This document shows positions 44,485-54,115 of a DNA stretch of 64,000 nt, one piece after another. The notes below the pieces were generated by a model. That model searched no databases and was not told where the DNA came from. It worked only from the letters and a program-made list of their open reading frames with translations. The stretch lies in sequence record PZ445429.1; one strand, given 5' to 3'. The stretch is from a phage. Within the stretch, counting starts at the first letter, position 1. Each line of letters begins with the position of its first letter. Both the position numbers and the translations under genes were made by a program.

Positions 44485-47380
44485 TTCTAGCCCCCAATTC
44501 AGCAAGAGCTTCCTCATGCATCTGACGTTCTTCATCTGTCATAAACTTAACTGGAATCGGCATACATTCGATCTTACAGTAAGTTCTGTACCAGTCCACA
44601 ATCTTTTCCGTATCCAGATCTTTACCGATACCCATCATGCCAAGATACATACGAGCATATTTTGGGTTAGCGCTCTGACCTGTCTTAAGGAAGAAATCCT
44701 TCTTCTTATTCTTAAGAGCTTCGATAAACGGTTTGATTGTTACGTTTGAACACTTTTTAATATCTTCCCAGAACATGTCGTGCATCTTATGGAAGAATGC
44801 AGCTCTATCGTTTGGTTTATCCTTAATATACTGTTCAACGTGTTCCACTATTACATCTTTAATAGAATCCAGATGATAATAGCGAACCAGAAGTAACTTG
44901 GCTTCATAGGCATCTGCATGACGTGGTGCGCAATATTCAGGAGTTGAGTGCAAAATAGCTTTGATTCGCTCTTCTATATACTCTTTGCCTGCACCTTCGA
45001 TAGTTCCCCAGCTTTCGCTGAAAATATCGATAGTTGCACCCTGATCAAGCAGATAATAACGCAAAGTACTAGTATAGTTTCTAGATTCCAGCTCACGACG
45101 ACGTGCGTACAGTTGTTGGGCTAACTCAATCCAACCTTCGTCAATATTATATTGCTCGGAACCCGCAGAAAATCCACTCGTAGATTTATCAATAAAATAA
45201 TAAATGTTCTGAGCACCACGGTCGCGCCTGATTGCTTGGAAACGCATGTTTGGCGCTTGGTTTGAGGTTCTAGTGATTACGAATACGTTATCAAAATAGT
45301 TAAAGTCAACACCACTAGTTACAGATGGACTACATAACAAACAATCAATCTGTTGATCAATTAGCTCATTAGTTGTATAATCCAGAATACGTCGGATATC
45401 TATATCAGACGTAGAGTTTGAGTGAATTTCTTTAACCAACGCACCAGTATTACGACGTAACGCCATTCCCTTTTCATTCAGTTCATCTGGTCCACAGTCA
45501 GATACTAGGATTGACTTCTCACCCATCTCTAGAGATGTTTGAAGTGCAACCCAAATACTGGATTCGTCAGGGAATTCATAAGCGTGAGCTTTCGCCAGCA
45601 TTTTACGGTGATGATTATAGAATGCAACTGGTTTATCAAAATCAATCAAAGAACCATAGGCTTCAATCGTTTCTGCACTGATATCACCATCAGATAAGAT
45701 AACAGTTTTAGCAGTAATAAGGATATCACGAAGAACCTGAATACATTCACGACGGTTTTTAACAACCGGAGCGAATAACAGATCATTCATTACTGCGTCA
45801 CATTCATCAATAAAGATCGTATCAATCTGACCCACAAAGCTCTTGAACTTATGGATAGAGTGAATAGTTGAAGACATACGATCAATAGCACCACGTTTGA
45901 AGTTCAGCATATCAACTGACTTATCATACTGGCCAGCACCGAATTTCTTCGCGTTAGAAGATACAAGTGCCCTAGTATTTGTGATTGCAATAAAGTTTCC
46001 TGGAAGAACACCTGCATCTAGCCACTTAGTTACTGCTGTAGTTTTACCCGTACCAAGACTTGCCTTAACAAATGTTAAATGTCCTTTTGGGGGTACAATG
46101 TTAATTTTCAGGTACGGAACTTCTGGTGGAGAATCTGTGTCTAGACGTTTTAATGGTACACCTTTTAAGTTTGGTGGAATCTCACGTTTGGAGTTATTTA
46201 CAAAGGCTTTGAGAGCCTGCTTACGACCATTATTAAAGTAATCTTGAATATTACGACTATTATCTTTAGTCGCAATATACTCAGATAAAGCTGGTTTAAT
46301 CTCACGTTCTAACCACGTAAAGTCAACACCATCTTCTAACGCTCTGTGATAAAGTTTTGGGATAATACGCAGGTACACTCCATCCTCAGCTTCTTCTAGT
46401 TCGCTGATGGTTTCTTCCACTTTATCAGATGCAGCCTTCTTGCCTTTAATTTGATCAAGTAAGGAGTAGAACTCTTCTTTAAACTCACCTCTAGTTGTTT
46501 CAAAGTCAACTAGGTTATTAGGTAGATTCACCTTCGAACCCTTAACATATACAAGACGTGGTTTATTCTCCGCTTTAAACGGATCGACTATATCATCATC
46601 AAATAAGGGATCTGCGAAATAGTGAAGCTGAACAGAAGAATAATAAGCTAAGTCAGCAATATCAAAACCATACTTTTGCTTACTACTGTCATTGATAGAT
46701 GTAAATAAGAACTTTAACTGTCCCTGCGTTACCTTGACATTAGATTCTAGCATTAAGTGCATTCGGATACCTGGTTTTAATCCAGCCGAAGACGATGCAT
46801 GGGCAATAAACCCTGCATCAAGAGGAAACATATCCTCACTAATACTATTCAACATCTTAATAATATGACGTGCCATGCCAACAAGATTAAACTTGTCATA
46901 GCCACCAGTATCTACAATACCATCCACGTCCATAGCAATAATATGACTAGGATTGGATACATTAAAGTTTCCTCTGGTACGACGCACATTATCTTTTGGA
47001 GCTAAACATTTACCACGAATAGCTACAATATGCGGGTCTTTGGTAAGACGACGCATGATAGGTAACATTTCAGCAAGGTTTTGCGGGTCAAGTTCTTCAA
47101 GTACATCAAATTTGAAGGGCATGGAAGCTGGTTTACCTTCTGGATGCTCTTTAGAGAATCGCTTTGCAAAGGTGTAATCTTCCACTTTGATCTCTTTCCA
47201 GATGCCAGTGGCTTTATCTCTGGAAAATCCTGCGTGACCTTGTAGGATTGAGAACACAACAATACTCCTATGTTGGTTATTCGGATATCTTTCTTTAGGA
47301 CTATTCAAAAGAATAGAACAACTATTACTACCATTTACACAAACATTAATCATCATCAAGCAGTATGAATAAGTTATCAT
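44468..47380 (-). CDS. Large SF2 helicase-like protein, origin-binding-protein-like (970 aa; true start uncertain)
   Basis: Walker A SLGTGKTT and DExD-like FIDECD in the central region; N-terminal about 50 aa Cys-rich and atypical, so the real start may lie downstream. Confidence 0.6.
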   Translation of the reverse strand: MITYSYCLMMINVCVNGSNSCSILLNSPKERYPNNQHRSIVVFSILQGHAGFSRDKATGIWKEIKVEDYTFAKRFSKEHPEGKPASMPFKFDVLEELDPQNLAEMLPIMRRLTKDPHIVAIRGKCLAPKDNVRRTRGNFNVSNPSHIIAMDVDGIVDTGGYDKFNLVGMARHIIKMLNSISEDMFPLDAGFIAHASSSAGLKPGIRMHLMLESNVKVTQGQLKFLFTSINDSSKQKYGFDIADLAYYSSVQLHYFADPLFDDDIVDPFKAENKPRLVYVKGSKVNLPNNLVDFETTRGEFKEEFYSLLDQIKGKKAASDKVEETISELEEAEDGVYLRIIPKLYHRALEDGVDFTWLEREIKPALSEYIATKDNSRNIQDYFNNGRKQALKAFVNNSKREIPPNLKGVPLKRLDTDSPPEVPYLKINIVPPKGHLTFVKASLGTGKTTAVTKWLDAGVLPGNFIAITNTRALVSSNAKKFGAGQYDKSVDMLNFKRGAIDRMSSTIHSIHKFKSFVGQIDTIFIDECDAVMNDLLFAPVVKNRRECIQVLRDILITAKTVILSDGDISAETIEAYGSLIDFDKPVAFYNHHRKMLAKAHAYEFPDESSIWVALQTSLEMGEKSILVSDCGPDELNEKGMALRRNTGALVKEIHSNSTSDIDIRRILDYTTNELIDQQIDCLLCSPSVTSGVDFNYFDNVFVITRTSNQAPNMRFQAIRRDRGAQNIYYFIDKSTSGFSAGSEQYNIDEGWIELAQQLYARRRELESRNYTSTLRYYLLDQGATIDIFSESWGTIEGAGKEYIEERIKAILHSTPEYCAPRHADAYEAKLLLVRYYHLDSIKDVIVEHVEQYIKDKPNDRAAFFHKMHDMFWEDIKKCSNVTIKPFIEALKNKKKDFFLKTGQSANPKYARMYLGMMGIGKDLDTEKIVDWYRTYCKIECMPIPVKFMTDEERQMHEEALAELGARNDSEE

Positions 47381-47746
47381 ACCTCAGTGCTGCGCTCTCT
47401 TAACTCTTATCCAGATCAGAACCTAGGTCATTGGCCGCTAAGCCGATTCTGATTGCCCTCACTATCCTATTGGTAGGTGGCTACTGGACGTGTCACCATT
47501 CGCTGCTCTTTTCGTTCGCACCCCCATATAAAACTCTGCCTATATAACGAGCTAAATATGCACGGTTTGGATTTACCTTTCCGAATTCAGGGTACGCAGA
47601 TCACTTAATTGATAATTAACTAATGCAGTATAAACACTAGTAATAGTTAAAACAACCCTTAATGGGGCAGCCTAACTGTTCCGTATTGCGGATTGTAAAC
47701 AAGAAAAATTAGCAAAATCAATTTTTACTAATGTCTCTCAATTCAA

Positions 47747-47787
47747 TATAAATATTATATCAAGATTTTGAGCATCCTGCAAGTAAA
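47747..47787 (-). promoter_or_regulatory. sigma70-type promoter (TTGCAG, 17 nt, TATAAT) about 370 nt upstream of the helicase-like gene
   Basis: On - strand: -35 at 47777-47782, -10 at 47754-47759; A-tract upstream. Confidence 0.5.
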
Positions 47788-47873
47788 ATTTTTCCGAAGG
47801 TGCTATCAGTGTCTTTGAGCACAGAGAAAACCGAGCCAAAATGACTCGGTAATCAGGATTGGACTAATGAAAA

Positions 47874-48269
47874 TCAATCATCATTTAGGCCTGGAACATA
47901 GATCCCAATGCGATTTAATTTACCTTTAGCTTCTTCGAGAATATCTTCGGTGTACTCCCAAATATCATCTTCTACTTGCAAAAGATAAGGGGATTCACCA
48001 GTTTCGGGGTCACGTGTAATGGCTAAGCCACGTGGATGGAATATAGAGAAGTTGAGGGCAACAATCAAGCCCATACTGGACAATTCATTCCAGTCAGCTT
48101 CCCAACCATCATCTTCATCTTCGTCCACAAAGACACCTACACTAGGGTCTGTTACAGAAGTAAACGGAAATGTTACACTAACCTTGTCAACCCCCAACCA
48201 ACGTGCAAGGAGCCCTTCAGCACGCTCTACCAAACTAGGATCTATCTGACGCCAAAATACTTGTTCCAT
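47874..48269 (-). CDS. Hypothetical acidic protein, paralog B of tandem pair (131 aa)
   Basis: Shares motifs with adjacent ORF (WNELSSMGLIVALN, ETGESPYLLQV, IGIYVPGL). Confidence 0.55.
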   Translation of the reverse strand: MEQVFWRQIDPSLVERAEGLLARWLGVDKVSVTFPFTSVTDPSVGVFVDEDEDDGWEADWNELSSMGLIVALNFSIFHPRGLAITRDPETGESPYLLQVEDDIWEYTEDILEEAKGKLNRIGIYVPGLNDD

Positions 48270-48278
48270 TCTGCCTCC

Positions 48279-48707
48279 TTAAGCAGTTAAACCTGGGATC
48301 ATATACCCTAAACGACGAAGTTTCTGAATCCCCTCATTTACTTCTTCGGGCGAATATGACCAGCCCTCACGTTCATTTACCTGGAAAGCAGGAGCTTCAC
48401 CAGTGCGATAGTTTACAATAAGACGGTGATTTGCAGGCATAAACAGCTTATGGTTCAAGGCAAAAACCAGACCCATTTCATCGAGTTCTTTCCAGTCTAC
48501 AATTTCTTCTACTCCCTCACCTAAATCCACGCTAACTCCAATACATGGAGCTTCCTCTAGTGGGCCTTTAAAGGATAGGAAGATATCGTTATTCTCACAC
48601 CAAATCTTAAGCAGATTGATGGTTTCATTATACATACCATTAGGGAGAGAACGCCAGAAGTTGAGGAGCATAGGGTTTACCTCTTTCATGAAAAGATTAT
48701 CGAACAT
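48279..48707 (-). CDS. Hypothetical acidic protein, paralog A of tandem pair (142 aa)
   Basis: Shares motifs with adjacent ORF (WKELDEMGLVFALN, RTGEAPAFQV, LGYMIPGL). Confidence 0.55.
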   Translation of the reverse strand: MFDNLFMKEVNPMLLNFWRSLPNGMYNETINLLKIWCENNDIFLSFKGPLEEAPCIGVSVDLGEGVEEIVDWKELDEMGLVFALNHKLFMPANHRLIVNYRTGEAPAFQVNEREGWSYSPEEVNEGIQKLRRLGYMIPGLTA

Positions 48708-48709
48708 AT

Positions 48710-49249
48710 TTACACCTTAAGTTTCTGAAGAGCCTTACACATTTCAAGATCTGGACTAAACTCCAGCATATAGCTGATAGCATTTAAATCTTGAAGGTTT
48801 ATTCCAGTCCTGCCATTTACAATAACAGTAGGGAATTGGTACATCATAGCACCAGCATCATCTAGGACACACCAATGCTTGAGCTTATATTTTTCGACGA
48901 AACGTAAAACAGAATTACCCCGAGATAAACCACCTCCAGTAAAATCTGTTGTACCAAGGAAACGATCGATCAAACCGAGTCCGGTCATAATCTGAACGTT
49001 CTCCATTTCATTTCGTACAGAAAACCATGAAGAGACCCCAACAATCATTATTGGGGAGGGTTTAAGAAAGTTCTGAAAAGCCTGGAGTAATGGCTTATAA
49101 ACCCAATCACTGCCAAAGAACAGCTTTTCACTGTCTGGAGCATGATGGTGAGAGATGCTCGAATTGAGCACCCCATCAATATCCAGGAAAATCACAGGAG
49201 TATTACTTATTTCCACTAGTAGCATCCCACGTCCAGACTTTAACTTCAT
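48710..49249 (-). CDS. HAD-superfamily phosphatase-like protein (possible nucleotidase)
   Basis: HAD motif I FLDIDGVL near N-terminus; alternative start at Met 49225. Confidence 0.55.
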   Translation of the reverse strand: MKLKSGRGMLLVEISNTPVIFLDIDGVLNSSISHHHAPDSEKLFFGSDWVYKPLLQAFQNFLKPSPIMIVGVSSWFSVRNEMENVQIMTGLGLIDRFLGTTDFTGGGLSRGNSVLRFVEKYKLKHWCVLDDAGAMMYQFPTVIVNGRTGINLQDLNAISYMLEFSPDLEMCKALQKLKV

Positions 49250-49388
49250 CAGTAAAAGGAACCGGAACCTTCAATTCACCTTTACCCCACATAACAGATA
49301 GGAACAGAGAATAAATGGTAATCATACCGATTAGGTTGACAAACCATACTAGACCTTTCCAGATACCCTTAAAAATCTTCTTCACCAT
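49203..49388 (-). CDS. Small membrane protein (about 61 aa from internal Met)
   Basis: Single predicted transmembrane helix (GLVWFVNLIGMITIYSLFLSVMW). Confidence 0.4.
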   Translation of the reverse strand: MVKKIFKGIWKGLVWFVNLIGMITIYSLFLSVMWGKGELKVPVPFTDEVKVWTWDATSGNK

Positions 49389-49551
49389 ATTCTCCCTCCT
49401 TAATAAGGAACTCTTTCCATTCTGCTGTATCCTCATAGATAACGCAGAAATCATCACTCTTCCATGAGAAGTCATCGGTAGCAAATTCGAAACGGTAGCA
49501 CCAACTACCGTCCGGCCATACTAAAAGATCACACATGCTCTTGCGGTGCAT
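49369..49551 (-). CDS. Hypothetical small acidic protein (60 aa)
   Basis: ORF overlapping the end of the SIR2-like gene and the start of the membrane-protein ORF. Confidence 0.35.
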   Translation of the reverse strand: MHRKSMCDLLVWPDGSWCYRFEFATDDFSWKSDDFCVIYEDTAEWKEFLIKEGEYGEEDF

Positions 49552-50380
49552 AAATAGTTCCTTCCATAAAGGCTTCTACTTGACCAATGAAATGCTTGTT
49601 ACCAAAAACTTCGGCAGCTCCAGCACGCCATACAGTAACACCACGTTTCTCATACTCAAGCTGTTCATCATAACGAACTTGAGGATTAACAACCATCATC
49701 TTAGTTCCACGACATACAGCAGGAAATAATTCCCAGTTGAAGTTGATAACTTGGTTGCTACAACCCACCACAATAACCATGTCATTGCTAGTAAGAGTAT
49801 CAAACAGGTTGATTTGACCCATGTACCACGGAGCCGTCTCACCAAAGAATGTTACGTTTGGTTTTACCCATTCGTAATCCTCAGGGGCAATCGCAGTATA
49901 CCCAACATCTTCGATGATTTGGTTGCGACCCTGACGATAGATCACCTCTTTCAAGTACCCGTGAGCGTGAATGATTTCATCACGAGGGATACCAGCACGT
50001 TCCAGAAGGTCATCAACGTTAGTAGTGAAGTTCTTCACGCTATCCGCACCATAACGCTGGAACCATTCTGCAATTCGCAGATGGGCAATGTTAGGCTCAA
50101 CAGTCTGTAATTCCTGACGACGCATGTTGTAGAACTCATGAGTCTTGAGATATAGATCGTTACCATCTTCATCAATGCCAGGGAAACGAGCACTGAAGTA
50201 GTTAGGATCATCTTCACCACAGAAGCGACGGAAGCCAGCTTCAAAGTTAGGCAAGCTACATACTTCCTCTAGATCGTACTCATCCCACAAGGATTTCCCA
50301 CTAGCAGTATCAGTACGGAATGCACGGATACCACTATCAACACTTAAACCAGCACCACTAACAACGATTAGTCTACGCAT
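49529..50380 (-). CDS. SIR2 (sirtuin)-family protein lacking the zinc-ribbon cysteines (283 aa)
   Basis: Sirtuin Rossmann motifs GAGLSVDSGIRAFR and NVDDL...HAHG plus VVVGCS...VVNPQ; no CxxC...CxxC zinc module detected. Confidence 0.65.
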   Translation of the reverse strand: MRRLIVVSGAGLSVDSGIRAFRTDTASGKSLWDEYDLEEVCSLPNFEAGFRRFCGEDDPNYFSARFPGIDEDGNDLYLKTHEFYNMRRQELQTVEPNIAHLRIAEWFQRYGADSVKNFTTNVDDLLERAGIPRDEIIHAHGYLKEVIYRQGRNQIIEDVGYTAIAPEDYEWVKPNVTFFGETAPWYMGQINLFDTLTSNDMVIVVGCSNQVINFNWELFPAVCRGTKMMVVNPQVRYDEQLEYEKRGVTVWRAGAAEVFGNKHFIGQVEAFMEGTIYAPQEHV

Positions 50381-50574
50381 TATACGATTCCTTGCTTGAA
50401 TCCTTCGATGATATTTTGGAGCAGAATTGCTTCTTCTGGGCGAACCTTCTCTTGCTTAATAAGCATATCCAAACCAGCAATACAGGTAGCTACTCCAGCA
50501 TTATACCCAGCATTCCACTGCTCCATGAGCATATTTTCTAAATTACTTTTTAGATTCTGATTCAAGAAGTCCAT
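50380..50574 (-). CDS. Hypothetical small protein (about 64 aa)
   Basis: ORF upstream of SIR2-like gene; start placed at MDFLNQN. Confidence 0.35.
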   Translation of the reverse strand: MDFLNQNLKSNLENMLMEQWNAGYNAGVATCIAGLDMLIKQEKVRPEEAILLQNIIEGFKQGIV

Positions 50575-50746
50575 AAAGTTTTTCCTCCAATTCCATAATA
50601 CGATTTTCGTAAGAAGCACGCAGCTTCTCGATGGACAAAGCACGAACTGTAACTTCATCTGAATTGATCGCTAGCTGAGCTAGATCTTCTGTTTCCATAC
50701 GTCCGTTGTAAATTAAGCGATATTTGAGATGTTTTACGTTTTTCAT
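50543..50746 (-). CDS. Hypothetical small protein (67 aa)
   Basis: Charged coiled-coil-like ORF. Confidence 0.35.
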   Translation of the reverse strand: MKNVKHLKYRLIYNGRMETEDLAQLAINSDEVTVRALSIEKLRASYENRIMELEEKLYGLLESESKK

Positions 50747-50755
50747 TCTTGTTCC

Positions 50756-51037
50756 TTAGTTCTGTACTGTAAACTCATTCTTATCACAGTGAGCATAATA
50801 ATACCCATACATACGATAAATTTTCACAGCCTTAGTAGACCCCTTCGATTCTTCATAATCGATCCAGAGCCACTTGTCTTTACCTACATAATGTACCCGA
50901 AACTTCTTAACTTTCTTATCATTCCATGTTGCAACAACACGACGATAATCAAATCCGCCCAACCAATCTAGAGCCTTACGTTCTTCACTAGGCTCTCCAA
51001 GATGGGAAACATCTACTTTAGGAAGCAATTCGCTCAT
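50756..51037 (-). CDS. Hypothetical protein (93 aa)
   Basis: First ORF after promoter at 51060-51096; leader with GAGAGGAG RBS. Confidence 0.5.
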   Translation of the reverse strand: MSELLPKVDVSHLGEPSEERKALDWLGGFDYRRVVATWNDKKVKKFRVHYVGKDKWLWIDYEESKGSTKAVKIYRMYGYYYAHCDKNEFTVQN

Positions 51038-51059
51038 AGCTTTCTCCTCTCAAATTTAT

Positions 51060-51096
51060 AAATCAATTATACATAAGTTTTAGCTAGAAAGCAAAT
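51060..51096 (-). promoter_or_regulatory. sigma70-type promoter (TTGCTT, 17 nt, TATAAT)
   Basis: On - strand: -35 at 51089-51094, -10 at 51066-51071. Confidence 0.6.
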
Positions 51097-51097
51097 A

Positions 51098-51130
51098 AAA
51101 TAAAAGCCAGGTCGACTAGCAACCTGGCTG
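51098..51130 (-). terminator. Rho-independent terminator downstream of nrdD
   Basis: Hairpin agccaggt...acctggct with A-rich run on + strand (U-run on - strand). Confidence 0.6.
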
Positions 51131-51135
51131 ATTCA

Positions 51136-53010
51136 TTATTTAGCGCGAATGTCCTGATGTTTCACTCGACCCATAACCTCATGTTGTTTACCTGGGTTAA
51201 ACGGACGAGCACCTGGATTTCCAAGATAGCCACAAACTCGACGAGTTACCTCAAGAGTCTCAGGATCATGGTTGCCACAAATAGGGCATTTGAAACCATC
51301 CTCAGAAGCTATAGTTTCACCCAAGAACCCACATTCCCCACAAGAGTCTACTGGAGTATTAATACCGAAGTAATGAACTTTACTTGCAGCATAGTTAATA
51401 ACCCATTCCAGTGCATCAGGGAATCGTTTCATATCCGGTAATTCCACATAGGAAATGCACCCACCAGAAGCAATAGGAGTAAAGTTAGACTCATAATCAA
51501 ACTTCACATTTGGAGCAACCTTACGTTCTACATCAAGGTGATGGGAATTAGTGTAATATCCTTTAGCCAGAATATCTTCATGCTCTGGGAAATACTCACG
51601 GTCTAGGCGACAGAAGCGATCACATAGAGATTCAGATGGTGTAGCATACAGACTATACCCTAATTGAGTCTCTTCCTTCTTCTGATCAGCACGATCACGC
51701 ATGTATTGTAGCACACGTTGAACGAACTTGATACAAGACTCAGACATTGTATCTACATCTTTACCAAACATGAGTTGCAACATTTCGTGGCAGCCAATAT
51801 ATCCTAGGGATACAGAAGCACGCTTGTAGAAATGATCAAATACATATTCATCTGGCCCCAGACGTAATCCAAAGGCTCCTGACATATAGAGGATGGGCGC
51901 AGCTTTAGCTTGAATGTATTTTAAGCGATCAACTCTCCACTCCAATGCTTTTAACGCGGTATCCACACGCAGCTCAAGCAGATCGAAGAATAGATCAATA
52001 TTTCCTTCCGCTTCGATAGCGATTCGAGGAAGGTTTACGGAAACAACGCCTAAGTTGTTACGACCAGAAGTTTCACCATCTTCCGCAGCAGCCAGGAATG
52101 AACGACAGCCCATAGAGACTTTGTAGCCCCCCGTAACTTCTACAACCTTATCATAACTGATGTAGTCAGGATACATACGTTCAGCAGTACATTTCATAGC
52201 TAACTTCTTGATATCATAGTTAACATCACCAGGTTTCATGTTTACGCCCTCACGCAAAACAAATACCAGTTTAGGGAAGATAGCTGTACGTTTATTGATA
52301 CCCAAACCATCCATACGTACTTCTAGTATTGCTTTCTGTACAAGACGTGCTTCCCAAGAAGTTCCTAGACCAAAACCAAAGGTAATAAACGGACTTTGAC
52401 CATTAGAGTTGAACATCGTATTGATTTCATACTCCAGGCCCTGACAGGCATCGTAAACTTCTTTCTCAGTCATTTCCGTAGCCATTACAGATGCTTTAGC
52501 TTCATCCTTAGTCCAGCGCTTTGCAAACGCATGATTCTTATCATAAGACTTACGAACATAAGGAGCCAATACTTCATCTAATCGGTCCACAGAAGTACCC
52601 CCATATTGATGTGAACTAACCTGAGTGATAATCTGAGCTGTGATAGCAGCCGCAGTAGTAATAGAGTTTGGTGTACTGATTTCAGCATTACCAACCTTCA
52701 TACCATTCTTCAACATATCTTCCAAAGCAACCAGGCAACAGTTAGTCATACCTAACGCAGCGTAATCAGCATCATGGAAGTGAATATCACCAATCATGTG
52801 AGCATTTCGAATCTGGATTGGCATTTCTTCCAGAATCAGATATTTACTCAATTCCCCTGCAAGCATATCCCTTTGTGTAGGGAAACGTTCTGAGGGCTTA
52901 TTGGCATTATTAAACAGCAGCTCTTCATCTGCTGAACCTTCGATAATTTCTTTGCAGTTTCGAATCAAGGACTGCATTCCTTTATACTTTAGTTCTTCAT
53001 TGCGATTCAT
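51136..53010 (-). CDS. nrdD: Anaerobic ribonucleoside-triphosphate reductase
   Basis: C-terminal zinc ribbon (CGECGF...CPICGN) and glycyl-radical motif (RVCGYLG); 624 aa. Confidence 0.85.
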   Translation of the reverse strand: MNRNEELKYKGMQSLIRNCKEIIEGSADEELLFNNANKPSERFPTQRDMLAGELSKYLILEEMPIQIRNAHMIGDIHFHDADYAALGMTNCCLVALEDMLKNGMKVGNAEISTPNSITTAAAITAQIITQVSSHQYGGTSVDRLDEVLAPYVRKSYDKNHAFAKRWTKDEAKASVMATEMTEKEVYDACQGLEYEINTMFNSNGQSPFITFGFGLGTSWEARLVQKAILEVRMDGLGINKRTAIFPKLVFVLREGVNMKPGDVNYDIKKLAMKCTAERMYPDYISYDKVVEVTGGYKVSMGCRSFLAAAEDGETSGRNNLGVVSVNLPRIAIEAEGNIDLFFDLLELRVDTALKALEWRVDRLKYIQAKAAPILYMSGAFGLRLGPDEYVFDHFYKRASVSLGYIGCHEMLQLMFGKDVDTMSESCIKFVQRVLQYMRDRADQKKEETQLGYSLYATPSESLCDRFCRLDREYFPEHEDILAKGYYTNSHHLDVERKVAPNVKFDYESNFTPIASGGCISYVELPDMKRFPDALEWVINYAASKVHYFGINTPVDSCGECGFLGETIASEDGFKCPICGNHDPETLEVTRRVCGYLGNPGARPFNPGKQHEVMGRVKHQDIRAK

Positions 53011-53032
53011 TATACCCTCCTTCTCTAACTAA

Positions 53033-53072
53033 GACTACTATTATAACTCATTCGAAGGCGGATGTCAACAAT
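53033..53072 (-). promoter_or_regulatory. Consensus sigma70 promoter (TTGACA, 17 nt, TATAAT) for nrdD
   Basis: On - strand: -35 at 53063-53068, -10 at 53040-53045. Confidence 0.65.
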
Positions 53073-53112
53073 ATTTTACTATAAAGTTCTGTAACATGAT
53101 CTGAGTCAAAAA

Positions 53113-53150
53113 ATTTTATTTGCCAACCTCTACTAAAAATAGTATAATCA
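53113..53150 (+). promoter_or_regulatory. sigma70-type promoter (TTGCCA, 17 nt, TATAAT)
   Basis: -35 at 53120-53125, -10 at 53143-53148; A/T-rich upstream. Confidence 0.55.
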
Positions 53151-53253
53151 CGCATCCGTGTACGCGATATAAAATGATTATCTAGTACCATACATCTCCC
53201 AATAAAAGCAAGCAAATTTTTTATTTAAATGCAATATCATAGGCTTATTTAAA

Positions 53254-53291
53254 ATTGTAGTTGCTTTCTCCCGTATATATTGGTATAATAT
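53254..53291 (+). promoter_or_regulatory. sigma70-type promoter (TTGCTT, 17 nt, TATAAT) for phoH block
   Basis: -35 at 53261-53266, -10 at 53284-53289; aaaatt upstream element. Confidence 0.6.
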
Positions 53292-53362
53292 ATTTGTAAG
53301 TTGATAAACAAGATCTTTTTGTTGATCCTCTGTTAGCGAAGTACACTATAGGAGTGTTATTT

Positions 53363-54115
53363 ATGGGAAAAGCACGTCAAAAAAGAGAGAACCGCAATGG
53401 TTCAAGAAAGCGTGGCAACAAGTATGAGAGTAACGTAATTCAAGCAGATTTCTCTGGTGATTACGCCAATCCAGTTGCTAAATCCCTAGTTGGTAAAAAC
53501 CGTGAGCAAAAATCATATATCAATATGATCAAGAACAACACAGTGACTGTGGGTATTGGTGAACCAGGTACTGGTAAAACCTTTATTCCGTCCGTTCTTG
53601 CAGCTCAGGAACTCGTAGACATTCACTCAGATATTGAGCAAGTGATCCTCGTGCGTCCGAACGAACCTCTAGGTAAATCTCTTGGTATGCTCCCAGGTGA
53701 TCTGGCAGAAAAGCTAGAGCCTTGGTTGGAACCAATAGCCGATGGCATGAAATGGGCAATCGGTGATCACGCCTACAAAGGATATGTCGAACGTCAGAAA
53801 ATTAAATTCCTGGCTATCGAACATGCCCGTGGCCGAACTTTCAACAACTCCTATGTAATTGTCGATGAAGCTCAGAATATCTCCGTTGAAGCAATGATCT
53901 GTCTTTTGACCCGTGTAGGACAAGATTGTCGTTTAATTATCTGTGGAGATATAGCTCAGAAAGACATCAAGGGTGATTCAGGTCTAGCACTTCTTATGGA
54001 AGTCTATGAGAAGTACGAAAACTCTCCTTTCTCTATGATCGAACTGATCGACAACGTTCGCTCACCAGAGTCTAAAGCATTCTACGATATCTTTAAGGAT
54101 ATGGGGAAGGTGTAA
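53363..54115 (+). CDS. phoH: PhoH-like ATPase
   Basis: Walker A GEPGTGKTF; Walker B VIVDEAQN; RBS taggag then ATG 53363 (ORF track starts at GTG 53354). Confidence 0.85.
   Translation: MGKARQKRENRNGSRKRGNKYESNVIQADFSGDYANPVAKSLVGKNREQKSYINMIKNNTVTVGIGEPGTGKTFIPSVLAAQELVDIHSDIEQVILVRPNEPLGKSLGMLPGDLAEKLEPWLEPIADGMKWAIGDHAYKGYVERQKIKFLAIEHARGRTFNNSYVIVDEAQNISVEAMICLLTRVGQDCRLIICGDIAQKDIKGDSGLALLMEVYEKYENSPFSMIELIDNVRSPESKAFYDIFKDMGKV

What the first reader, a model, noticed from the sequence alone, without database searches (positions are those of the whole stretch)
48710..50746. Co-directional module of SIR2-like protein, small overlapping ORFs, a membrane peptide and a HAD phosphatase
From 50746 down to 48710 on the - strand lie a coiled-coil peptide, a small protein, the SIR2-like gene, a 60-aa acidic ORF, a single-pass membrane peptide and a HAD-fold phosphatase with FLDIDGVL, all tightly packed with overlapping stop/start codons. 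That packing suggests translational coupling and a shared function. An NAD-utilising enzyme together with a phosphatase and a membrane peptide could form a nucleotide or NAD-derived-metabolite processing system, or an anti-defence unit.
Basis: inference. Interest (0 to 1): 0.55.

Follow-up and report, generated by a model that had tools for sequence, protein, structure and literature searches.

The report
Phage sirtuin–phosphatase early operon
This is a real, tightly packed early operon of a T5-like phage whose conserved core, a zinc-less CobB-like sirtuin next to a small HAD phosphatase, was already described in 2022 as a predicted NAD-dependent RNA-repair pair, while the small peptides between them are variable extras.

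Summary
All six ORFs lie on the minus strand at the stated coordinates, they overlap, and all are under purifying selection.

The block is only the inner part of a nine-gene early transcription unit. That unit runs from a promoter at 51094-51066 to a terminator at 47850-47830. It also contains orf93 and two DUF7415 genes.

The window is an Epseptimavirus, 99.5% identical to Salmonella phage bux, and the genes are annotated in hundreds of records.

Sirtuin–HAD adjacency is conserved in every Markadamsvirinae locus examined. It survives a reversed gene order in Pantoea phage AAS21. It recurs in one distant contig.

The small ORFs and the membrane peptide come and go. Sugarland-like phages lack the HAD. 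Phage DT57C has deleted both enzymes and is viable.

Iyer et al. (2022) already described this "SP15-type" neighbourhood and proposed a KptA/Tpt1-like RNA 2'-phosphate removal role. I confirmed that the same sirtuin clade sits in operons with RNA ligase, cREC, a kinase and a phosphoesterase in Vequintavirinae-like phages.

Against that reading, the sirtuin's fold and motifs are closest to the deacylase CobB.

One new side observation: a HAD homologue sits inside a NARP1-like NAD+ reconstitution operon.

No experiment has tested any function.

The parts
51105..51129 (-). Terminator-like hairpin ending the upstream nrdD unit.
   Evidence: One search found a 10-bp stem with a T-run. It aligns with the rho-independent terminator annotated in T5.
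51066..51094 (-). Early promoter of the unit, TTGCTT-17 nt-TATAAT.
   Evidence: One search gives the coordinates. The sequence is nearly identical to the T5 stretch annotated as putative early promoter T5P31.
50756..51037 (-). orf93, the first gene of the unit (phrog_7953, function unknown). In other T5-like phages it alternates with the ORF094/phrog_11748 family.
   Evidence: dN/dS is 0.0-0.06.
It is conserved at 85-100% identity across T5-like phages.
   Evidence: dN/dS is 0.02-0.04.
50380..50574 (-). orf64 (phrog_5827), a small protein. Its stop overlaps the SIR2 start (TAATG). It exists as two alleles among T5-like phages (89-100% versus about 35% identity).
49529..50380 (-). Sirtuin of the phage-specific clade, 283 aa. 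It has a CobB-like fold and intact NAD and catalytic motifs (GAGxS, YxxR, TNVD, HG, FGE, GxS, N), but no Zn-binding cysteines.
   Evidence: Pfam. Closest solved relative is CobB 1s5p, E=1e-16. Clade alignment. AF2 model with pLDDT 83.7. Foldseek hit to CobB with target-normalised TM-score (TMt) 0.80-0.84. No PADLOC hit. Far below NCBIfam CobB cut-offs.
49369..49551 (-). orf60, a small acidic protein (phrog_5116; alternative start at 49536). It follows SIR2 in many T5-like phages and in Sugarland, and is absent in some.
49203..49388 (-). TM61, a single-pass membrane peptide (phrog_11166). It is present only in Epseptimavirus and AKFV33-type genomes.
   Evidence: pI 9.7 and GRAVY +0.41.
48710..49249 (-). 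Capless (C0) HAD phosphatase of family HAD_SAK_2. The likely true start is the GTG at 49216. Motifs present: DxD (FLDIDGVL), GVSSWF, TGGG..RG and LDD.
   Evidence: Pfam. Alignment. AF2 model with pLDDT 93.4. Best structural neighbour is MDP-1, with T4 and mammalian PNKP phosphatase domains lower down. No solved relative by sequence.
48279..48707 (-). First DUF7415 paralogue.
47874..48269 (-). Second DUF7415 paralogue and the last gene of the unit.
47830..47850 (-). Terminator-like hairpin ending the unit. The next promoter, TTGCAG-17 nt-TATAAT, lies at 47782-47754.
   Evidence: T5 has a terminator and promoter T5P32 at the equivalent place.

Best explanation
The block is the core of an early-expressed, dispensable accessory operon of a T5-like phage (Epseptimavirus). 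The only two parts that consistently travel together are a phage-clade sirtuin and a capless HAD_SAK_2 phosphatase.

The most likely mechanism is the one proposed by Iyer et al. (2022). I could test it only through gene context.
- The sirtuin uses NAD+ as an ADP-ribosyl donor to remove a 2'-phosphate from RNA ends damaged by metal-independent host RNases. This is KptA/Tpt1-like chemistry: a phosphate oxygen, rather than an acyl oxygen, attacks C1'' of NAD+, and the histidine-activated 2''-OH then resolves the adduct.
- The HAD phosphatase either removes the remaining terminal 2'/3'-phosphate or dephosphorylates the ADP-ribose-phosphate by-product.
- No ligase or kinase is encoded, so sealing would have to rely on host enzymes.

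What is shown: gene content, operon structure, conservation of the pairing, catalytic motifs and folds.

What is inferred: the substrates, the KptA-like chemistry, and any role in countering host RNases.

The small ORFs (orf67, orf64, orf60, TM61) are real genes but lineage-variable passengers, not obligatory parts.
For: 1. Adjacency is conserved. SIR2 lies within 1.2 kb of HAD in 23/23 HAD-centred Demerecviridae loci. HAD follows SIR2 in 28 T5-like loci of a SIR2-centred sample.
2. The order is inverted (HAD-orfX-SIR2) in AAS21 and contig L003, so the linkage outlived a rearrangement.
3. An independent pairing occurs in L164, where a SIR2 38% identical to the window's lies 3 kb from a HAD_SAK_2 gene.
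4. The same sirtuin clade (45-57% identity) sits inside the gene string Metallophos - RNA_lig_T4_1 - cREC - AAA_33 kinase - SIR2 in 13 Vequintavirinae-like loci. The full Pfam domain string was confirmed on one locus, L123; the other loci were grouped by tblastn matches to the APECc02 genes, and two of them (L115, L125) show only two marker genes each.
5. This matches the published description, in which the T5-like phage SP15 is named as the prototype of the sirtuin plus SAK-like HAD neighbourhood. SP15 itself carries both genes 344 bp apart (H70 and H139).
6. The HAD belongs to Pfam HAD_SAK_2, has all four HAD motifs and is capless.
7. HAD-family relatives occur fused to a calcineurin-like phosphoesterase. 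Two IMG/VR contigs, L035 and L036, carry a HAD within about 2.5 kb of a kinase-Rnl1-phosphoesterase cluster.
8. The sirtuin keeps the catalytic His and the anion-binding YxxR motif across the clade, under strong purifying selection.
Against: - No RNA ligase, polynucleotide kinase or cREC homologue was found in the window or in 20-114 kb of the near-identical TrudiRoth genome. 'Repair' would therefore be incomplete.
- By sequence and by fold the sirtuin is closest to the protein deacylase CobB and to Sirt5. It keeps the FGE peptide-binding loop.
- No sirtuin has been shown to act on RNA. This rests on my own knowledge, and no report turned up.
- Sugarland-like phages keep SIR2 without HAD.
- More than 500 phage records carry this sirtuin without this HAD: 977 records against 463.
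- Most distant HAD_SAK_2 loci have neither RNA-repair nor NAD genes nearby.
- All the linkage evidence comes from related virulent enterobacterial phages, so shared ancestry inflates the counts.
Confidence: 0.4

Rival explanations
1. The sirtuin is simply a CobB-like NAD+-dependent protein lysine deacylase (deacetylase or desuccinylase). It resets the acylation state of host or phage proteins early in infection. The HAD is an unrelated sugar- or nucleotide-phosphate phosphatase of the nucleotide-metabolism region. The two are neighbours only because they share an early operon.
For: - The closest solved relative by sequence is E. coli CobB (E=1e-16). It is also the closest by fold (target-normalised TM-score, TMt, 0.80-0.84), followed by Sir2-Af1 and Sirt5. 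No defence-type NADase appears in the top 50.
- The catalytic His, the class III YxxR motif and the FGE loop are conserved.
- NCBIfam matches are all deacylase models.
- The unit lies between nrdD and the replication genes.
- In T4-like Aeromonas phage PX29 the HAD homologue sits between td and nrdA.1.
- The best structural neighbour of the HAD is MDP-1. From memory, MDP-1 is a sugar-phosphate phosphatase.
- Sugarland keeps SIR2 without HAD.
Against: - The whole phage clade lacks the four Zn-binding cysteines. From memory, all characterised deacylase sirtuins have them.
- Scores fall far below every CobB equivalog cut-off: 88 bits against 243 or more.
- The SIR2-HAD pairing persists through a gene-order inversion and recurs in a distant lineage.
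- The clade is embedded in RNA ligase/kinase/cREC operons in other phages. A protein deacylase would have no obvious reason to be there.
Confidence: 0.3
2. The pair handles small NAD-derived molecules as counter-defence. The HAD would be an ADP-ribose-phosphate phosphatase, a non-homologous analogue of the Macro-domain Adpp of NARP1-AP. It would return ADPR-1''-P or Appr>p-derived products to ADPR for NAD+ rebuilding. The sirtuin would convert or destroy NAD-derived immune signals, or adjust the NAD pool.
For: - HAD homologues (38-41% identity) lie directly upstream of, and co-directional with, Prs-like and NAPRTase-like genes. That is the NARP1 gene pair. The arrangement occurs in Serratia phage ChuuTotoro, with a 4-nt overlap, and in a 152-kb JGI contig.
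- 15% of NARP1 operons are known to carry an accessory ADPR-1P phosphatase, of the Macro fold.
- NARP1-like genes lie divergently within 8 kb of the SIR2 operon in 8 of 13 Vequintavirinae-like loci, and also in L163.
- T5-like phages carry the NARP3 NAD+ salvage pair elsewhere in the genome.
Against: - The window contains no Prs, NAPRTase or Macro gene, and NARP3 lies about 20 kb away.
- A sirtuin consumes NAD+, which is counter-productive against NAD-depleting defence.
- The HAD-NARP1 arrangement was seen in only two sequences. About three GenBank records carry that HAD type, and none was found in IMG/VR.
- The adjacency could be a side effect of an accessory-gene hotspot next to the tRNA cluster.
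- No block protein matches any PADLOC model.
Confidence: 0.15
3. There is no functional module at all. The unit is a mosaic of independently exchangeable early accessory genes. The SIR2-HAD adjacency is inherited from a common ancestor of Markadamsvirinae rather than maintained by selection for joint function.
For: - The mosaic is extensive. SIR2, NrdD, orf64 and orf60 each occur as divergent alleles in otherwise near-identical neighbourhoods. orf93 alternates with ORF094. TM61 and orf60 are present or absent.
- HAD is absent in Sugarland-like phages.
- Both genes are lost in DT57C without loss of viability.
- Overlapping junctions are common throughout the genome.
- HAD and DUF7415 homologues occur separately in T4-like phages.
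Against: - Adjacency is retained after inversion of gene order.
- A distant lineage pairs the same two families.
- In other phages the sirtuin is paired with different phosphoesterases: Metallophos, and 2H or Nudix in jumbo phages (from the literature only). This suggests a recurring need for a phosphoesterase partner.
Confidence: 0.15

Closest known systems
Phage sirtuin 'RNA-repair' neighbourhood, type 3 (Escherichia phage SP15 type), predicted by Iyer, Burroughs, Anantharaman and Aravind, Viruses 2022 (PMC9503650)
   Same: [quoted passage not shown] It occurs in the same kind of phage: SP15 is a T5-like phage carrying both genes 344 bp apart. The window is one more example of exactly this arrangement.
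   Different: Nothing essential differs. The published description is computational only. It does not mention the small ORFs, the DUF7415 pair, the operon boundaries, the allelic mosaic or the loss of HAD in Sugarland-like phages.
Sirtuin operons of Vequintavirinae-like phages (rV5/Mydo type): Metallophos - T4-type RNA ligase 1 - cREC - kinase - SIR2 - MazG
   Same: The sirtuin belongs to the same clade (45-57% identity), and each operon also encodes a phosphoesterase partner.
   Different: The window has no ligase, kinase, cREC or MazG. Its phosphoesterase is a HAD rather than a calcineurin-like enzyme.
E. coli CobB and class III sirtuins (Sirt5)
   Same: The fold matches, with a target-normalised TM-score (TMt) of 0.80-0.84 and 27% identity. 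The NAD-binding motifs, catalytic His, YxxR and FGE loop are all present.
   Different: There are no Zn-binding cysteines. Scores are far below the equivalog cut-offs. The protein has a 27-residue insertion in the helical module. It is phage-specific, and its gene contexts point away from protein deacylation.
KptA/Tpt1 RNA 2'-phosphotransferase with Poa1p/Macro ADPR-1''-P phosphatase
   Same: The proposed chemistry is the same: NAD+-dependent removal of an RNA 2'-phosphate, followed by dephosphorylation of the ADP-ribose-phosphate by-product. That is the pairing of an NAD-consuming transferase with a phosphatase.
   Different: There is no homology. KptA has the ART fold and Poa1p the Macro fold. 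Here the two proteins are a Rossmann-fold sirtuin and a HAD. The activity has not been shown.
NARP1-AP (Adps + Namat + Macro phosphatase Adpp), Osterman et al., bioRxiv 2026
   Same: A phage phosphatase is genetically coupled to NAD chemistry. A homologue of the window's HAD occupies the accessory position of a NARP1-like operon in phage ChuuTotoro.
   Different: The window has no Adps or Namat. The known accessory phosphatase is a Macro domain, not a HAD. In the window the partner is an NAD consumer, not an NAD builder.
T4 polynucleotide kinase-phosphatase (Pnkp) phosphatase domain

Membership tests
Sir2 family (Pfam PF02146) | Profile score above the curated gathering threshold. | tested here: met
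   78.9 bits against a cut-off of 24, E=6e-22.
Sir2 family (Pfam PF02146) | NAD-binding Rossmann motifs (GAGxS, TxNxD, GxS, N) and the catalytic HG histidine. | tested here: met
   These positions are invariant across 27 clade members. The residues are aligned to CobB.
Sir2 family (Pfam PF02146) | Sirtuin fold. | tested here: met
   AF2 model with pLDDT 83.7. Foldseek hit to CobB, E=5e-17, target-normalised TM-score (TMt) 0.80-0.84.
CobB / class III protein deacylase (NCBIfam equivalogs) | Score above the curated equivalog cut-off. | tested here: not met
   The best match scores 88 bits against a cut-off of 243. Other models score 36-73 bits against cut-offs of 221-395.
CobB / class III protein deacylase (NCBIfam equivalogs) | Cys4 zinc-binding module. 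| tested here: not met
   There are no cysteines in the segment between HG and KPNV in any clade member. The CobB cysteines align to non-Cys residues or to gaps. The model shows a beta-hairpin there.
CobB / class III protein deacylase (NCBIfam equivalogs) | YxxR acyl-carboxylate pocket. | tested here: met
   Y84 and R87 are invariant (FYNxRR), aligned to FYNARR of CobB.
CobB / class III protein deacylase (NCBIfam equivalogs) | Lysine deacylase activity. | not testable with these tools
   This needs an enzyme assay.
Defence-type SIR2 NADases (ThsA, DSR1/2, SIR2-HerA, pAgo-associated) | Match to defence-system SIR2 profiles, or closest fold among them. | tested here: not met
   No PADLOC family matched at E<=0.01. 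No such structure appears among the top 50 Foldseek hits.
HAD superfamily phosphatase, family HAD_SAK_2 (Pfam PF18143) | Profile score above the gathering threshold. | tested here: met
   65.6 bits against a cut-off of 27.5.
HAD superfamily phosphatase, family HAD_SAK_2 (Pfam PF18143) | Four catalytic motifs: DxD nucleophile, Ser/Thr, Lys/Arg, and acidic DD. | tested here: met
   D23 and D25 (FLDIDGVL), S73/S74 (GVSSWF), R110, and D130/D131 are invariant or nearly invariant in 23 homologues.
HAD superfamily phosphatase, family HAD_SAK_2 (Pfam PF18143) | HAD Rossmannoid fold. | tested here: met
HAD superfamily phosphatase, family HAD_SAK_2 (Pfam PF18143) | Activity on RNA terminal phosphates. 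| not testable with these tools
   This is implied only by the family's name and gene contexts. It needs an assay.
Phage sirtuin-HAD neighbourhood (SP15 type, Iyer et al. 2022) | A phage-clade sirtuin gene in a conserved neighbourhood with a SAK-like HAD phosphatase gene. | tested here: met
   In the window the two genes are 280 bp apart on one strand. The same arrangement is present in SP15 (H70, H139). Description.
Complete heal-and-seal RNA repair system (T4 Pnkp + Rnl type) | Presence of a polynucleotide kinase and an RNA ligase. | tested here: not met
   tblastn with two Rnl1-type ligases, an Rnl2-type ligase, the kinase-like ATPase and the phosphoesterase found nothing in the window or in TrudiRoth 20-114 kb. 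None is annotated there.
KptA/Tpt1 family | ADP-ribosyltransferase (ART) fold. | tested here: not met
   The protein has a sirtuin fold. Only the proposed chemistry is analogous.
NARP1 / NARP1-AP | Adps (Prs-like) and Namat (NAPRTase-like) genes in the operon. | tested here: not met
   The window has no Prs-like or NAPRTase-like sequence. They are present next to a HAD homologue only in ChuuTotoro and one JGI contig.

The most novel reading that the evidence does not exclude
The phage sirtuin would be the first sirtuin to act on a phosphate rather than an acyl group. It would remove RNA 2'-phosphates (or phosphorolyse NAD+) and produce an ADP-ribose-phosphate.

The HAD_SAK_2 enzyme would be a new, non-Macro ADP-ribose-phosphate phosphatase. 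Such an enzyme both completes RNA healing in T5-like phages and, in ChuuTotoro-like phages, feeds ADPR into NARP1.

On this reading, RNA repair and NAD+ reconstitution form one coupled phage counter-defence economy. The divergent NARP1/sirtuin-repair gene pairs in Vequintavirinae-like phages would be its fullest form.
Probability: 0.25. Interest if true: 0.75.

Novelty: already known. Interest (0 to 1): 0.33.

Why it matters
Sirtuins of this clade occur in at least 977 sequenced phage genomes. No experimental work on their function turned up in my literature searches.

If they perform KptA-like chemistry on RNA, that would extend the substrate range of the sirtuin superfamily. It would also add an NAD-consuming step to phage RNA repair, tying it to the NAD+ arms race now being mapped (NARP1, NARP1-AP, NARP3).

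The T5-like version is the simplest form, with just two enzymes in a dispensable early operon. It occurs in genetically tractable BASEL phages such as TrudiRoth (Bas30). Natural controls already exist: DT57C lacks both enzymes and Sugarland lacks the HAD.

The window itself adds nothing new. The genes are annotated in hundreds of records, and the pairing has been published as a prediction.

Tried and rejected
- Defence-like SIR2: no PADLOC match for any of the nine proteins.
- Solved relatives of the HAD by sequence: none, only His-tag artefacts.
- An RNA ligase, kinase, phosphoesterase or MazG hidden in the T5-like genome: none found by tblastn.
- Whether DUF7415, ORF094, orf60, orf93, orf67 or orf64 are cryptic cREC domains: hhalign probabilities were all 0.9% or lower.
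- Pfam on the small ORFs and on neighbours in AAS21, Rgz1, ESCO5 and Sugarland: nothing beyond DUF7415 and other DUFs.
- The N-terminal Cys-rich extension of the 305-aa HAD homologue P0021: no domain match and an uninformative context.
- Close relatives of the ChuuTotoro-type HAD in IMG/VR: none. The HAD-NARP1 link therefore rests on two sequences.
- tRNA genes in the window: none.
- Rfam families in 47000-53500: none.
- Papers on an experimentally studied T5 sirtuin: none found.
- Contexts of distant HAD_SAK_2 genes: heterogeneous, including a prophage or island next to a PTS operon, a plasmid-like contig, and phage contigs of unknown genes.
It was redone with alignment A3.


Full report
WHAT THE WINDOW IS

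The 3-kb stretch around the finding is 99.5% identical to Salmonella phage bux and E. coli phage Shin27. It matches 467 phage records in all, nearly all of them T5-like Demerecviridae. Window coordinates are offset by only 30 bases from those of Escherichia phage TrudiRoth (Bas30), an Epseptimavirus.

THE OBSERVATION

Each is annotated in related genomes.
- orf67, 50543-50746.
- orf64, 50380-50574. Its ATG with a GGAGGA ribosome-binding site is at 50574.
- A sirtuin, 49529-50380 (Pfam SIR2, 78.9 bits).
- An acidic orf60, 49369-49551.
- A single-pass membrane peptide, 49203-49388.
- A HAD phosphatase, 48710-49249 (Pfam HAD_SAK_2, 65.6 bits).

The start conserved among HAD homologues is probably the GTG at 49216.

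Five of the eight junctions in the transcription unit overlap. Every ORF, including the small ones, has third-position-dominated substitutions and dN/dS of 0.02-0.3, so these are genes and not chance ORFs.

The packing is tighter than elsewhere in the genome. All junctions are 10 nt or less, against 50% elsewhere (p=0.016). Overlapping junctions are nonetheless normal for this genome, at 34% elsewhere. Packing alone says little about shared function.

THE REAL UNIT

The block is the inner part of a nine-gene early operon.
- A hairpin terminator follows nrdD at 51129-51105.
- A TTGCTT-17-TATAAT promoter lies at 51094-51066. It aligns almost base for base with the T5 stretch annotated as early promoter T5P31.
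- A second terminator lies at 47850-47830, followed by the next promoter.

WHICH PARTS TRAVEL TOGETHER

In 23 HAD-centred Demerecviridae loci, the sirtuin is always within 1.2 kb.

In a sirtuin-centred sample of 59 IMG/VR loci:
- 28 T5-like loci have SIR2-(orf60)-HAD-DUF7415x2.
- 3 Sugarland or DU_PP_V-like loci have SIR2 followed by the DUF7415 pair (with orf60 between them in the two Sugarland-type loci) and no HAD. The Sugarland annotation agrees.
- 8 Phapecoctavirus-like loci pair the sirtuin with two unknown proteins.
- 13 Vequintavirinae-like loci place it among RNA-repair-type genes. They were grouped by tblastn matches to the APECc02 genes, and two short or partial loci (L115, L125) show only two markers each.
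- 7 are miscellaneous.

In Pantoea phage AAS21 and a Logan contig the order is inverted to HAD-orfX-SIR2. A distant contig, L164, whose sirtuin is 38% identical, has a HAD_SAK_2 gene 3 kb downstream. The enzyme pair is therefore a recurrent association.

The small genes are not.
- TM61 exists only in Epseptimavirus and AKFV33-type genomes.
- orf60 is missing where SIR2 abuts HAD directly.
- orf64 and orf60 occur as divergent alleles.
- orf93 alternates with the ORF094/phrog_11748 family.

The sirtuin itself occurs as two alleles, 96-99% and about 51% identical to the window's. It sits next to a HAD that stays about 90% identical.

Phage DT57C carries a single deletion that fuses the C-terminal end of SIR2 to the C-terminal end of HAD. 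Both enzymes are therefore dispensable in the laboratory.

THE TWO ENZYMES

The sirtuin clade is highly conserved, with 63% mean column identity. It retains GAGxS, FYNxRR (the class III YxxR pocket), TNVD, the catalytic HG, FFGE, GxS and N. It has none of the zinc-binding cysteines.

Its AlphaFold model (pLDDT 83.7) is closest to E. coli CobB (E=5e-17, target-normalised TM-score (TMt) 0.80-0.84), then Sir2-Af1 and Sirt5. It matches no defence-system SIR2 profile and falls far below the NCBIfam CobB cut-offs.

The HAD family is large, with 13,542 representatives, mostly stand-alone. Occasional fusions occur to a calcineurin-like phosphoesterase or to a second HAD.

WHAT IS KNOWN

Iyer, Burroughs, Anantharaman and Aravind (Viruses 2022) described exactly this arrangement. 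They report a distinct phage sirtuin clade found in three neighbourhoods. [quoted passage not shown] They proposed that the sirtuin acts like KptA to remove RNA 2'-phosphates. SP15 is a T5-like phage carrying both genes.

I reproduced their second neighbourhood. In APECc02, SIR2 sits among a phosphoesterase, an RNA ligase, a cREC protein, a kinase-like ATPase and MazG, with the kinase and phosphoesterase genes on the opposite strand there. In IMG/VR locus L123 the genes form one co-directional string, Metallophos - RNA_lig_T4_1 - cREC - AAA_33 kinase - SIR2, with MazG about 2 kb further downstream.

I found no experimental study of any phage sirtuin of this clade.

MECHANISM

The RNA-repair reading has the strongest contextual support. 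I hold it at 0.40. Against it:
- T5-like phages encode no ligase, kinase or cREC.
- The enzyme looks like a deacylase in fold and motifs.

The plain deacylase reading stands at 0.30. Against it:
- The clade has lost the zinc module.
- A phosphoesterase partner keeps recurring.

A third reading comes from something I noticed. Homologues of the window's HAD (38-41% identity) sit directly upstream of Prs-like and NAPRTase-like genes, the NARP1 pair, in Serratia phage ChuuTotoro and in a JGI contig. Osterman et al. (2026 preprint) showed that some NARP1 operons carry a Macro-domain ADPR-1''-P phosphatase that lets them overcome the aRES defence. A HAD in that position could be a non-homologous analogue.

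NARP1-like genes also lie divergently within 8 kb of the sirtuin repair operon in 8 of 13 Vequintavirinae-like loci, plus L163. The NARP1 intermediate decays to ADPR-cyclic-phosphate, which from memory is also the product of KptA/Tpt1. So an ADP-ribose-phosphate phosphatase would fit both contexts.

This link rests on very few sequences. It may simply reflect an accessory-gene hotspot beside the tRNA cluster. I give it 0.15.

The null view, that the unit is an inherited mosaic with no joint function, also gets 0.15.

VERDICT

The thing itself is already known, both as annotated genes and as a published prediction. Interest is modest. What remains open, and testable in BASEL phages, is what this widespread sirtuin actually does.

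Noticed in passing
window 48710-49249; NC_027356.1 (L095 2468-2740): The C-terminal half of the HAD matches phrog_18062, which is labelled 'Sir2 (NAD-dependent deacetylase)'. Many RefSeq T5-like records accordingly annotate two 'Sir2' genes. My inference is that the label derives from the defective SIR2-HAD fusion ORF of phage DT57C, so the HAD is widely mis-named.
   Followed up: partly
L004 8001-11217 (Serratia phage ChuuTotoro ON287369); L005 8001-11569 (JGI contig): A HAD_SAK_2 homologue (38-41% identical to the window's HAD) lies directly upstream of Prs-like and NAPRTase-like genes, which is the NARP1-type pair. It is co-directional with them and, in ChuuTotoro, overlaps the next gene by 4 nt. 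It may be a HAD-type accessory phosphatase analogous to the Macro-domain Adpp of NARP1-AP. I did not find this arrangement described in the papers I read.
   Followed up: partly
L123, L126, L127, L149, L153, L159, L160, L162, L163 (IMG/VR contigs): In Vequintavirinae-like phages the NARP1-like genes (NAPRTase and Prs, on the minus strand) lie divergently within 8 kb of the Metallophos-Rnl1-cREC-kinase-SIR2 operon. An NAD-rebuilding pathway therefore sits next to an NAD-consuming sirtuin cluster.
   Followed up: partly
window 49529-50380 and 51136-53010, compared with L002 and L009-L027: Among T5-like phages whose flanking genes are about 90% identical or more, the sirtuin occurs as two deeply divergent alleles (96-99% versus about 51% identity). 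They differ by a 27-residue indel and a 12-residue indel. NrdD likewise has two alleles (about 98% versus about 60%). The window's sirtuin allele is closer to those of Sugarland, AAS21 and Phapecoctavirus (60-68%) than to that of T5.
   Followed up: partly
window 47874-48707; L008 7347-7586; hits H235-H248: The C-terminal half of DUF7415 occurs in many T4-like phages. In Aeromonas phage PX29 it lies immediately after rnlA. In several Klebsiella phages it lies beside the anaerobic ribonucleotide reductase genes (nrdG/nrdD). In T5-like phages the unit follows nrdD. The function is unknown.
   Followed up: partly
L002 2199-2579 (T5 ORF094); L006 5506-5862 (AAS21 gp052); L003 8079-8441: The ORF094/phrog_11748 family travels with SIR2 and HAD. 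It lies between HAD and SIR2 in AAS21-like phages. It is the first gene of the operon in T5, and it alternates with orf93 at that position among T5-like phages. It has no Pfam match.
   Followed up: partly
TrudiRoth MZ501109 69803-71537 (outside the window): The NARP3 pair (a NadR-like enzyme and a PnuC-like transporter, Bas30_86/87) lies inside the tRNA region, about 20 kb from the sirtuin operon. The same genome therefore encodes an NAD+ consumer, an NAD-dependent DNA ligase and an NAD+ salvage route.
   Followed up: no
GenBank records behind H223, H226, H228, H234, P0048, P0119: DUF7415 genes and some sirtuin genes are annotated in several phage records as 'tail tube protein' or 'tail assembly protein'. 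These look like propagated annotation errors.
   Followed up: no
L093 3834-5010 (Escherichia phage ESCO5): In Phapecoctavirus-like phages the sirtuin is preceded by two conserved proteins of unknown function, of 205 aa and 166 aa. The 166-aa protein is very acidic and overlaps the sirtuin start. Neither has a Pfam match. They may be a fourth kind of partner for this sirtuin clade.
   Followed up: partly
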